DNA from: a virus
Lineage: Duplodnaviria > Heunggongvirae > Uroviricota > Caudoviricetes
Strand: one strand, 5' to 3'
Virus record (IMG/VR): IMGVR_UViG_2744054854_000007
Length of the DNA stretch: 44,225 nucleotides
Numbering within the stretch: position 1 is the stretch's first letter; every line of letters begins with the position of its first letter. Position numbers and translations under genes: made by a program. Below are positions 8,699 to 10,627 of this stretch, in pieces. The notes under the pieces are model-generated. The model saw nothing but the letters and a program-made list of their open reading frames with translations, was not told the origin of the DNA and did no database searches.

Positions 8699-10627
8699 TC
8701 AGTAATTCATGGCCGTTGTTATTCTGCCATTATTTTCCGCATTATAGGTTTTTCGCTCACCCTTATCATTAACCATTGTGATTTCGAGCTTAAGTGGTTG
8801 TTCTGACATTGCCTCTTTAAGAGACTTAGCCAGATTGTCGCCGAGTACACTTTCATCACTTTTCTTACCCGTATCACTCAGAATGATGGATTCCCGATTT
8901 CTGTTCTGCGAGCCTGAGAGAATATCAGTTTCATCACTCGGGTTACTAAGAGTGCTGGAGTCACGATTTCCAGTTTGCGAACCTGAGATAATGTCATACC
9001 GCTGCTGGGCCAGCACATCCGGATTTCTCTTCCCTGACCACCGATCATCAGTAATGGCGGTCTGGATGGCGTTTAGCAGTTGTTCCTCAGTATAAGGTTG
9101 TGCGCCATTCTCATGTTTAATCATGGCTGCCATTATCGTTTTTAATGTTTCCGGATCGTGCAGATTTACTTGCTCTTTGGCTCCATATCCAGTGGCTTTT
9201 GAGACGGAGTCAATATATGCACGAGTATTATTCTCTGATTGCGGAGCATAGGTATGAATAATCCCATCCAGAGTATTATTCCCCCTGTCACCATACAACA
9301 TCAGCTGTCTCGCCATTGCAGTTCTTCCGTCGGCATCATTCGCAAAGGTAGAAAATCCGCCATTTTTACCCGTTGCGTTTGCTGCAACTCTCAAATTACC
9401 GGGATTATTATTTCTGAAACCAATTGCGTTATTCCTTGTTTCCCCGTAAGGAACATTGCCGCGTGCAACGTTGGATTGTGGCTGGCTGATAGCGGATAAG
9501 TCATTCTGCAATTGAATCGCAGAATCGGTCGCGCGGTAATTCGCATCGTACCGCTTTCTTACAGCATCAGTCATGAAACCCGCGTCAACCTGCCCACGTT
9601 CACTGCGGGGTAAGCTGTTATAAAGTTCCTTATCGTTCTGAATGCGCCGTAGTTTCTCAGCATCATTGCTGTTGATAAAACCGAGAGCATGAGACAGCCC
9701 AGTAAAATCACCATTAGTGAACAGATCGGTAACACCTTCAAGGCCGTCTTTGACTGAACCATCCGAAAGAATGGTCTTAAGTGCCTTGTTTTTTGAACGT
9801 TGCCACAGACCATCCCAGGATGCGCTGAGCTCATTCATAGTGCCGTTCACTTCACTCAATTGCTGATTTAGTGCCGGATCCACAGTCAGACCAAATTCAT
9901 CCGATTTCGCCAGCAGCTTTTTCATGCGCTCACCGTCACGCATTAGCGCCAGCAATTCGGGCGTCAGCCCAAGTGCATCAGCGGCGGACTTCTGCTGTTC
10001 AGGTCGCAAGGTTGGAAAAATTTTTGCGATAGACTCCAGTGTTTTAAGGGTATTTACTGAACCATCGCTGTTTTTTTGGATTTGAGCACCAATTTGCGCC
10101 ATCGCTGCCATAACCCCCTCGTTTTTACCACTGGCAGCCTCATTGAATGCTTTGAAAATACCTTCTATTGATGCATTAGCGCTCTCGCTGTCTGCCCCAA
10201 GAATACGCATTGCCCCGGAAAGTCGGGTAAAATCGTCAACGCGCATTCCCGCATTTTTTGCCGAGACATCAAGATTATAGGCCTGACGGGATGCCTCCCG
10301 AAATCCATAAGCGACCTGTTTCAGTCCGTAGCCGGCAGCACCGGCTAACCCCAGCGCCCCCATCTTCCCCGTGAGCTCCCCCACCATTTTCAGAGGGGGA
10401 ACCATGTCGCCAATAAACTGCACGTTATCCCGCGCGCTCTTCGACATATTCTCGAGGCGAGAAATAAAACCGCTCAGTCCGTCGGCTGTTTCCTGACCGC
10501 CTAACTTGAGCCCTTCTTTAGTTTTATCTAGCTTCGGCTCCAGGTCACGGACAGCCTCATTAATGCGGTCTATAGCCTCGCTAACCTGGTCGCTGGCCAC
10601 CAGCTCAAAATCAAAAGAATTACTCAT
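8699..10627 (-). CDS. Tail tape-measure protein
   Basis: 642 aa, Ala/Gly-rich with internal repeats; lies directly after the frameshifted chaperone gene; the frameshift-extension stop overlaps its start (ATGAGTAA). Confidence 0.8.
   Translation of the reverse strand: MSNSFDFELVASDQVSEAIDRINEAVRDLEPKLDKTKEGLKLGGQETADGLSGFISRLENMSKSARDNVQFIGDMVPPLKMVGELTGKMGALGLAGAAGYGLKQVAYGFREASRQAYNLDVSAKNAGMRVDDFTRLSGAMRILGADSESANASIEGIFKAFNEAASGKNEGVMAAMAQIGAQIQKNSDGSVNTLKTLESIAKIFPTLRPEQQKSAADALGLTPELLALMRDGERMKKLLAKSDEFGLTVDPALNQQLSEVNGTMNELSASWDGLWQRSKNKALKTILSDGSVKDGLEGVTDLFTNGDFTGLSHALGFINSNDAEKLRRIQNDKELYNSLPRSERGQVDAGFMTDAVRKRYDANYRATDSAIQLQNDLSAISQPQSNVARGNVPYGETRNNAIGFRNNNPGNLRVAANATGKNGGFSTFANDADGRTAMARQLMLYGDRGNNTLDGIIHTYAPQSENNTRAYIDSVSKATGYGAKEQVNLHDPETLKTIMAAMIKHENGAQPYTEEQLLNAIQTAITDDRWSGKRNPDVLAQQRYDIISGSQTGNRDSSTLSNPSDETDILSGSQNRNRESIILSDTGKKSDESVLGDNLAKSLKEAMSEQPLKLEITMVNDKGERKTYNAENNGRITTAMNY

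What the first reader, a model, noticed from the sequence alone, without database searches (positions are those of the whole stretch)
8890..9005. Imperfect tandem repeat in the tape-measure C-terminal region
Seen in sequence: two roughly 40-bp similar units with about 69-bp period encode I(I/L)SGSQ(T/N)xNR(D/E)S twice. Tape-measure repeats can change tail length by unit gain or loss.
Basis: seen in the sequence. Interest (0 to 1): 0.2.

Follow-up and report, generated by a model that had tools for sequence, protein, structure and literature searches.

The report
Copy-variable repeat in tape-measure linker
A real 23/26-codon tandem duplication lies in a floppy linker near the end of a prophage tail tape-measure protein, and close relatives carry one, two or three copies, but whether this changes tail length is untested, so it is a well-documented ordinary polymorphism.

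Summary
The repeat is real. Two in-frame units (window 8927-8995 and 8858-8926, minus strand, 71-72% identical) form the strongest tandem duplication in the window; 0 of 200 shuffles reach it. They encode DIISGSQTGNRDSSTLSNPSDET / DILSGSQNRNRESIILSDTGKKS(DES).

The host gene (8699-10627, minus, 642 aa) is the tape measure protein (TMP) of a Mu-type contractile tail in a lambdoid enterobacterial prophage.

The repeat is not in the helical ruler. It sits in an 84%-polar segment predicted as low-confidence coil. Upstream is an embedded Enc34-type lysozyme domain (aa 401-527); downstream is a conserved C-terminal helix plus beta-hairpin.

Relatives with otherwise identical proteins carry 1, 2 or 3 units. 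Junction DNA shows reciprocal products of misaligned recombination at 7-10-nt identities. Nearly all length variation in 85 relatives falls in this linker.

Unit gain and loss is therefore shown. An effect on tail length is not shown. By the 0.15 nm/residue rule one unit is about 3.5-3.9 nm, roughly one tail ring, but a slack spacer with no effect fits equally well.

Verdict: new member of a known kind, low-to-moderate interest.

The parts
8699..10627 (-). Tape measure protein gene, 642 aa
   Evidence: ORF and translation. phrog_2276 'tail length tape measure protein', E 1.3e-155 over aa 1-564. Flanked by sheath, tube and chaperone genes upstream and Mu gp43/gpP-type hub genes downstream. The exact protein is on record on 894 public contigs.
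8927..8995 (-). Repeat unit A, aa 545-567, DIISGSQTGNRDSSTLSNPSDET (23 codons)
8849..8926 (-). Repeat unit B in its 26-codon form, aa 568-593, DILSGSQNRNRESIILSDTGKKSDES. It keeps the family-wide invariant Ile582 of the S-I-I/L motif.
   Evidence: D1, D12; I582 invariant
8984..9022 (-). Predicted helix aa 536-548 (DVLAQQRYDIISG). Its last residues form the start of unit A.
   Evidence: AF2 secondary structure. The QQR(Y)(D/N)I(I/L)S motif is conserved across the family.
9047..9427 (-). Embedded Enc34-type (PHA02564) lysozyme-like domain, aa 401-527
   Evidence: phmmer to PDB 7Q47 (Enc34 endolysin), E 1.7e-8; profile E 1.7e-11; 9VVP Gp29, E 1e-19. Foldseek finds 7Q47 as the only significant hit, E 2e-6. 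Y460, Y471 and E506 align with Enc34 W79, Y95 and catalytic E131 and are invariant in 31 relatives.
8702..8854 (-). Conserved C-terminal segment, aa 592-642: helix 592-608 plus beta-hairpin 613-631 (LKLEITM...GRITTAMNY). Presumed hub/spike-proximal anchor.
   Evidence: AF2. Conserved in relatives with either lysozyme domain type. The anchoring role is inferred by analogy to other tails.
10620..11047 (-). Tail assembly chaperone gene (10769-11047) with slippery TTTTTTG at 10784-10790. The -1 frame stays open to a TAA at 10620-10622, overlapping the TMP start codon.
   Evidence: Pfam PF10109; sequence and translation

Best explanation
The feature is a genuine in-frame tandem duplication (units of 23 and 26 codons) inside the tape measure gene of a lambdoid prophage with a Mu-type contractile tail.

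The protein has four parts:
- a helical N-terminal ruler, about aa 1-390;
- an embedded Enc34-type lysozyme domain, aa 401-527;
- a polar, probably disordered linker, aa about 548-591;
- a conserved C-terminal helix plus beta-hairpin, presumed to sit at the baseplate hub.

The duplication copies the whole linker, from the DI(I/L)S end of the preceding helix to the SDE that precedes the last helix. The linker is the one part of the protein whose length is weakly constrained. Misaligned recombination or replication slippage between the two units, at 7-10-nt exact identities, repeatedly adds or removes a unit and gives 1-, 2- and 3-copy alleles.

Shown: the repeat, its location, the copy-number series and the junction sequences. 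Inferred: that the segment is a flexible spacer between the lysozyme domain and the anchor, and that its length is tolerated. My expectation is that one unit changes the tail by at most about one ring.
For: - Repeat real and beyond chance.
- TMP identity.
- Residues 548-591 are coil with pLDDT about 28-34 in two independent AF2 runs, while the flanking domain and C-terminal elements score 60-89.
- The repeat region is 84% polar/charged/Gly/Pro, against 63% for the whole protein.
- Copy-number series on near-identical backbones (each pair also 31/31 in the C-terminal residues): P0002 (3 units) vs P0009 (2), 540/540; P0040 (3 x 26 aa) vs P0041 (2), 540/540; P0001 (3) vs P0015 (1), 539/540; P0057 (1) vs P0038 (2), 539/540.
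- DNA junctions: the extra copy in L009 is a B-5'/A-3' hybrid, and the single copy in L012 is the reciprocal A-5'/B-3' hybrid; both cross over in 'tctcagg'. L010/L011 duplicated 78 nt with the crossover in 'agtgatgaaa'. L013/L014 carry two 78-nt copies that are 100% identical.
- Other duplications in the same linker have different boundaries, 30 aa and 44 aa.
- 239 of 297 indel events among 85 full-length relatives fall in residues 551-600. Indels elsewhere are 11 aa or less, nearly all 1-7 aa.
- More distant relatives have unrelated Pro/Ala/Ser-rich linkers in the same place.
Against: - Low pLDDT in a monomer model does not prove disorder. In the virion the TMP is an oligomer confined in the tube lumen.
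- Ile582 and the S-I-I/L motif inside the unit are invariant across the family, so part of the unit has a conserved role and is not a pure spacer.
- In lambda, TP901-1 and TM4, internal TMP indels change tail length proportionally, including deletion of an embedded peptidoglycan-hydrolase motif. The linker may therefore count towards length.
- 16 of 16 complete E. coli genomes with this allele have exactly two units. This could reflect selection for that length, or simply shared ancestry.
Confidence: 0.7

Rival explanations
1. Ruler unit. The linker counts towards tape-measure length, so each 23-26-residue unit lengthens the tube and sheath by about one ring (3.5-3.9 nm at 0.15 nm per residue). 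The 1/2/3-copy alleles would then be a natural tail-length series, possibly under selection.
For: - Tail length scales at 0.145-0.15 nm per residue in lambda and TP901-1.
- In TM4, deleting 114 residues that include a peptidoglycan-hydrolase motif shortened the tail by about 20 nm.
- 23 and 26 residues give 34.5 and 39 A as helix. This is close to the roughly 38-41 A ring rise of contractile tails (my own knowledge, not tested here).
- Indels of 23 and 26 aa recur, and SLT-type relatives also fall into 601- and 627-aa classes.
Against: - The segment is predicted coil, not helix.
- It lies 49-98 residues from the C-terminus. In TP901-1 about 127 terminal residues do not contribute to length.
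- Family lengths are nearly continuous (601, 603, 604, 613, 617-620, 624, 627, 633, 642-649, 663-671), with 30- and 44-aa duplications as well, so no clear quantisation appears.
- No tail measurements exist.
Confidence: 0.3
2. Motif dosage. The unit carries a short functional motif, such as the invariant S-I-I/L element or a processing or binding site, and copy number changes how many such sites the protein presents.
For: Ile582 and the (S/T/G)-I-(I/L) motif about 30 residues before LKLEI are invariant in all relatives, including SLT-type TMPs and phiNP. The DI(I/L)SGS core is the best conserved part of both units.
Against: - In the window's distal unit A the motif is degenerate (S-T-L instead of S-I-I-L), as expected for a relaxed extra copy.
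- Most family members have a single copy.
- No cleavage or binding data exist.
Confidence: 0.1
3. Chance or compositional similarity in a low-complexity segment, not a true duplication; or an assembly artefact in the variants.
For: The segment is compositionally biased. TRF did not report it.
Against: - z = 8.5 against a shuffle maximum of 6.25.
- In-frame register and 5 synonymous codon differences.
- Relatives with 100%-identical extra copies and hybrid junctions.
- Variants were seen on several independent contigs and samples.
- The units (69-78 nt) are shorter than short sequencing reads (my own judgement, not tested).
Confidence: 0.01

Closest known systems
Tape-measure length variants of lambda gpH, TP901-1 TMP and mycobacteriophage TM4 Tmp
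   Same: In-frame internal duplications and deletions of a TMP are tolerated. In those phages they change tail length at about 0.15 nm per residue. TM4 also carries an embedded peptidoglycan-hydrolase motif (PMC5099701, PMC1796659).
   Different: Those are siphovirus TMPs, and the variants were mostly engineered in the helical part. Here the variants are natural, the tail is contractile, and the repeat lies in a predicted coil linker after the enzyme domain. Tail length is unmeasured.
Classical TMP tandem repeats (11/18-residue units marked by Trp/Phe; 40-residue repeat of lactococcal phage p2)
   Same: Tandem repetition inside a TMP that contributes to protein length variation (PMC5099701; PMC13585406).
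   Different: The units here are 23/26 residues, contain no aromatic residue, number only 1-3 copies, and lie outside the helical ruler. A 2026 survey reports that most myovirus TMPs have no tandem repeat.
Citrobacter phage phiNP tape measure protein (viable temperate myovirus of C. rodentium)
   Same: Same tail module order. TMP aa 1-381 is 68% identical. Same four-part plan: ruler, muralytic domain, low-complexity linker with S-I-I-Q motif, and LRLEITM...GRISMPMFY end.
   Different: phiNP has an SLT-type lytic transglycosylase instead of the Enc34-type domain. Its linker is Pro/Ala-rich and lacks the DI(I/L)SGS repeat.
Enc34 endolysin catalytic domain (PHA02564 family, PDB 7Q47) and podovirus internal virion proteins with this domain (PDB 9VVP Gp29)
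   Same: The domain just upstream of the repeat is homologous in sequence and fold, and the catalytic Glu and two aromatic residues are conserved.
   Different: Here the domain is embedded in a tape measure protein, not in a lysis-cassette endolysin or an ejection protein. Activity was not tested.

Membership tests
Phage tail tape measure protein | Gene lies directly downstream of the tail assembly chaperone pair (with programmed -1 frameshift) and upstream of baseplate hub genes | tested here: met
   Order is sheath 11424-12926, tube 11049-11420, chaperone 10769-11047 (PF10109), TMP, then DNA_circ_N/gp43-like 6952-8358 and gpP hub 5870-6955. TTTTTTG lies at 10784-10790, and the -1 frame stays open to the TMP start.
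Phage tail tape measure protein | Profile homology to a curated TMP family | tested here: met
   phrog_2276, E 1.3e-155. Pfam-A gave no hit for the window protein itself. PF10145 is precomputed for several close relatives. NCBIfam gave nothing meaningful.
Phage tail tape measure protein | Long, mainly alpha-helical body | tested here: met
   AF2 predicts helices through aa 13-381, but confidence is low to moderate.
Phage tail tape measure protein | Protein length sets tail length | not testable with these tools
   Needs electron microscopy of virions with different alleles.
Classical TMP ruler repeats (11/18-residue aromatic periodicity) | Units of 11 or 18 residues marked by Trp/Phe, many copies, within the helical region | tested here: not met
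   Units are 23/26 residues with no W, F or Y, number 1-3 copies, and are predicted coil. Definition taken from PMC5099701.
Copy-number-variable tandem repeat (unequal recombination or slippage product) | Alleles differing only by whole units, with hybrid junction units | tested here: met
   Backbones are 539-540/540 identical and differ by one or two units. Hybrid A/B junctions and 100%-identical extra copies are seen in DNA.
Phase-variable contingency locus | Repeat changes shift the reading frame or switch expression on and off | tested here: not met
   All observed changes are multiples of 3 (69, 78, 90, 132 nt) and keep the frame.
Enc34-type (PHA02564) lysozyme-like domain (neighbouring part, aa 401-527) | Sequence and fold homology, with the catalytic Glu and two aromatic residues conserved | tested here: met
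   7Q47 E 1.7e-8 by phmmer, 1.7e-11 by profile, 2e-6 by Foldseek. Y460, Y471 and E506 are invariant and align with W79, Y95 and E131. Enzymatic activity is not testable here.

The most novel reading that the evidence does not exclude
Each 23-26-residue unit equals one tube/sheath ring. The natural 1-, 2- and 3-copy alleles on otherwise identical tape measure proteins would then be a ready-made allelic series of quantised tail length in a contractile-tailed temperate phage. The series would be generated at high frequency by microhomology recombination, possibly by the prophage's own RecE/RecT, and would let the phage population sample tail lengths or the reach of its lysozyme domain against different cell envelopes.
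Probability: 0.25. Interest if true: 0.45.

Novelty: new member of a known kind. Interest (0 to 1): 0.25.

Why it matters
Natural alleles that differ only in unit number (for example P0009 vs P0002, P0041 vs P0040, P0015 vs P0001) are a clean test set. They can show whether a non-helical linker next to an embedded enzyme domain counts towards tail length in a contractile phage. That point is inferred from siphovirus work but rarely tested in myoviruses.

The result also documents a modular TMP plan (ruler, exchangeable muralytic domain, expandable linker, conserved end) that could guide engineering of prophage-derived tails. If the linker proves to be slack spacer, the finding is just a well-characterised neutral polymorphism.

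Tried and rejected
- Tandem Repeats Finder at minimum score 30 did not list the repeat. I used the repeat finder and my own full-unit scan with shuffles instead.
- Pfam-A and NCBIfam gave no usable family for the TMP itself.
- Megablast against the phage collection found nothing. tblastn found only phiNP (N-terminal 59% of the protein) and Serratia BZS1 (38% identity) as TMP relatives; all other hits were to the lysozyme domain.
- A profile search of PDB sequences found no solved TMP relative, only the lysozyme domain. The C-terminal anchoring role therefore remains an analogy.
- I looked for coupling between the C-terminal allele (TTAMNY vs TLPMSY) and the downstream hub protein. L004 combines TLPMSY with the hub protein seen in TTAMNY loci, so there is no strict coupling.
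- I looked for quantised TMP lengths across the family. Lengths are nearly continuous.
- The '1089 members' of the P0015 cluster cannot be used as a count of 1-unit alleles. The cluster is heterogeneous and even contains hub proteins.
- A DNA- or RNA-level role for the repeat was considered. I dropped it without a dedicated test, because the repeat is in frame inside a coding region and its relatives vary by whole codons.

Full report
**Observation.** The repeat finder reports one family of two adjacent 69-nt copies, 8855-8923 and 8924-8992, 72% identical. In codon register the units are aa 545-567 (window 8927-8995, DIISGSQTGNRDSSTLSNPSDET) and aa 568-590 (8858-8926, DILSGSQNRNRESIILSDTGKKS). 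They differ at 20 of 69 nt; 6 codons are identical, 5 differ synonymously and 12 non-synonymously.

Allowing a 3-residue gap (GKK), the second unit extends through SDES to aa 593 (window 8849). The true units are therefore 23 and 26 codons, which explains a second short match at spacing 78 (D12).

In a scan of all periods from 12 to 300, this is the strongest full-unit tandem in the 44-kb window (z = 8.5). None of 200 triplet-block shuffles exceeded 6.25. Tandem Repeats Finder missed it, which is expected for two copies at about 72% identity.

**The gene.** The ORF matches phrog_2276, 'tail length tape measure protein', at E 1.3e-155. Upstream lie the sheath (11424-12926), tube (11049-11420) and a PF10109 tail assembly chaperone (10769-11047). 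Downstream lie Mu-type DNA_circ_N/gp43-like, gpP/gp44-like, gp45, gp46 and baseplate-J genes.

The chaperone gene ends with a P2 E/E'-type slippery TTTTTTG (10784-10790). Its -1 frame stays open for 56 codons, to a TAA that overlaps the start codon of the 642-aa ORF. This is the classical arrangement immediately upstream of a tape measure gene.

The rest of the window is a lambdoid prophage: terminase, portal, protease, decoration and major head proteins, a Q-like antiterminator, an endolysin and RecE/RecT-like genes. The exact 642-aa protein is on record on 894 public contigs. The gene is 99.9% identical in the top nine complete E. coli genomes listed; thirteen of the 33 matching genomes are at least 99% identical.

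**Where the repeat sits in the protein.** Two AlphaFold2 runs were made, one on the full length with 31 sequences and one on aa 373-642 with 46 sequences. Both give the same picture:
- helices through about aa 13-381;
- a folded helical domain at about aa 401-527 (pLDDT 60-89);
- a helix at aa 536-548;
- coil with pLDDT about 28-34 over aa 548-591;
- a helix at aa 592-608 and a beta-hairpin at aa 613-631.

The repeat region is 84% polar/charged/Gly/Pro, against 63% for the whole protein.

The folded domain is homologous to the catalytic domain of the Hafnia phage Enc34 endolysin (PDB 7Q47). The match is E 1.7e-8 by phmmer, 1.7e-11 with the family profile, and the only significant Foldseek hit at E 2e-6. 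It also matches the N-terminus of a podovirus internal virion protein (9VVP Gp29, E 1e-19). Enc34 Trp79, Tyr95 and the catalytic Glu131 (PMC8943055) align with Y460, Y471 and E506, which are invariant in 31 relatives.

In many relatives, and in the viable Citrobacter myovirus phiNP, the same slot holds an SLT lytic transglycosylase (PF01464). The N-terminal ruler and the C-terminal LKLEITM...GRIT.PM.Y end are retained.

The repeat therefore lies in a linker between an exchangeable muralytic domain and a conserved C-terminal element, not in the helical ruler. By analogy with other contractile tails, that C-terminal element sits at the hub/spike end: the XM1 central hub includes the TMP, and the P2 TMP forms a three-helix bundle toward the spike.

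**Copy-number variation.** Among 120 listed homologues the same allele occurs with different unit numbers:
- One unit: P0015, 619 aa, DIISGSQNRNRESIILSDTGKKSDES.
- Two units: the window and many others, 642 aa.
- Three units: P0002, 665 aa, with unit A duplicated; and P0001, 668 aa, with the 26-residue form of unit B duplicated.

A sister allele with a 26-residue unit (DIISGSQTGNREPTILSNPRDGNDED) also occurs with one (P0058, 619 aa), two (P0041-44, 645 aa) and three copies (P0040, 671 aa).

The backbones are essentially identical outside the repeat (each pair also matches at 31/31 C-terminal residues):

| Pair | Unit numbers | N-terminal residues identical |
|---|---|---|
| P0002 vs P0009 | 3 vs 2 | 540/540 |
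| P0040 vs P0041 | 3 vs 2 | 540/540 |
| P0001 vs P0015 | 3 vs 1 | 539/540 |
| P0057 vs P0038 | 1 vs 2 | 539/540 |

The encoding DNA shows how the changes arose:
- The extra copy in L009 is a hybrid with the 5' end of B and the body of A.
- The single copy in L012 is the reciprocal hybrid, with the 5' end of A and the body of B.
- Both cross over within the 7-nt identity tctcagg.
- L010 and L011, from two different samples, duplicated 78 nt with the crossover in the 10-nt identity agtgatgaaa.
- L013 and L014 carry two 78-nt copies that are 100% identical.

Further independent duplications with other boundaries occur in the same linker: 30 residues in P0047 and P0061, and 44 residues in P0059.

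Across 85 full-length relatives, 239 of 297 indel events map to residues 551-600. Indels elsewhere are 11 residues or fewer, nearly all 1-7. More distant relatives in Erwinia, Serratia and phiNP have unrelated Pro/Ala/Ser-rich linkers at the same place.

The segment is also a mosaic junction. Several E. coli alleles are identical to the window up to DIISGS, or up to the S-I-I motif, and then switch to a different C-terminal allele. All 16 complete E. coli genomes carrying this particular repeat allele have two units, so the 1- and 3-unit forms are minority variants.

**Mechanism.** Four things are shown: the duplication is real, it is in frame, it sits in the linker of the tape measure protein, and units are repeatedly gained and lost through misalignment at very short identities.

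Two things are inferred. First, the pathway: homology this short points to replication slippage or single-strand-annealing recombination rather than RecA-dependent exchange. The prophage itself encodes RecE/RecT-like proteins, but their involvement is untested. Second, the function: I take the segment to be a length-tolerant flexible spacer between the lysozyme domain and the conserved C-terminal element.

One caveat applies to the spacer reading. Ile582 and the (S/T/G)-I-(I/L) motif within the anchor-proximal unit are invariant across the whole family. The linker therefore contains at least one conserved element. In the window's distal unit this motif has decayed to S-T-L, as expected for a relaxed extra copy.

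Precedent favours an effect. Lambda and TP901-1 tails scale at 0.145-0.15 nm per residue. Removing 114 residues that include a hydrolase motif from the TM4 Tmp shortened tails by about 20 nm (PMC5099701, PMC1796659). On that rule 23-26 residues equal 3.5-3.9 nm, about one ring of a contractile tail. The ring rise of about 3.8-4.1 nm is my own knowledge, not a tool result.

Three points argue against an effect. The segment is predicted coil. It lies only 49-98 residues from the C-terminus, and in TP901-1 about 127 terminal residues do not count towards length. TMP lengths in this family are nearly continuous rather than quantised. I put the one-ring ruler reading at about 0.3.

**Comparison with known systems and novelty.** In-frame TMP repeats and indels are well known, but mostly in siphoviruses, and as 11/18-residue aromatic repeats in the helical body (PMC5099701). 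A 2026 survey notes that most myovirus TMPs have no tandem repeat (PMC13585406).

This case fails the definition of the classical ruler repeat: no aromatic residues, a 23/26-residue unit, and a coil prediction. It meets the definition of a copy-number-variable tandem duplication. It is not a phase-variable contingency locus, because every change keeps the reading frame.

I rate it a new member of a known kind. The tail-length claim remains open. Overall interest is low to moderate (0.25). Its main value is the natural allelic series it provides for a simple EM experiment.

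Noticed in passing
window 10620-10790 (minus strand): The tail assembly chaperone gene has a P2 E/E'-type slippery TTTTTTG at 10784-10790. 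The -1 frame stays open for 56 codons to a TAA that overlaps the TMP start codon, so a frameshifted chaperone fusion product is likely.
   Followed up: partly
window 8359-8698 (minus strand); L008 3462-3710; L013 5048-5296: About 275 nt are inserted between the TMP and hub genes. In L008 and L013 the insert carries an 82-aa hydrophobic small ORF followed by a hairpin and T-run. In the window, L007 and L001 this ORF is interrupted by an in-frame TAG (TAT or TGG in the others). The insert is absent from L002-L005, which have a 68-69-nt spacer. In L006 a 735-nt gene takes its place.
   Followed up: partly
window 9047-9427 (aa 401-527 of the TMP); P0090-P0117; L015: The muralytic domain slot of this TMP family is exchangeable. 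It holds an Enc34-type (PHA02564) lysozyme here and an SLT lytic transglycosylase (PF01464) in close relatives and in phage phiNP, with up to 99% identical N-terminal rulers. The Enc34-type domain also recurs in podovirus internal virion proteins.
   Followed up: partly
window 602-2323: Two tail-fibre assembly genes of the same PHROG face each other: 1141-1740 on the plus strand and 1712-2323 on the minus strand. They sit next to the tail-fibre gene 2320-3069. The layout resembles an invertible host-range segment of the Mu G or P1 C type.
   Followed up: no
window 16355-16445: A 27-nt tandem repeat, 3.4 copies at 76% match, lies inside ORF 15963-16637 (phrog_6382, with weak head-protease/scaffold-like similarity). 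It is the second strongest tandem in the window.
   Followed up: no
window 33590-33966: A cluster of short direct repeats lies inside ORF 33157-34158: TCTTC x4.6, ACGTTACTAGTA x2.7 and CGTTACGTTACG x2.5. It may be an iteron-like replication origin within a replication gene, as in lambda O.
   Followed up: no
window 40335-40560: Weak internal periodic similarity (periods 60, 147 and 207 nt; z up to 6.6) lies inside the 1129-aa RecE-like exonuclease ORF 38002-41391.
   Followed up: no
protein P0098 (666 aa; no window coordinates): One database protein joins the TMP N-terminal 61% (99% identical) to gpP/gp44 hub domains. This suggests a deletion that fuses the TMP to the hub gene in some prophage copy, or an assembly error. 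The 90%-identity cluster containing the window protein also includes hub (DNA circularization) proteins, probably chained through such fusions.
   Followed up: no
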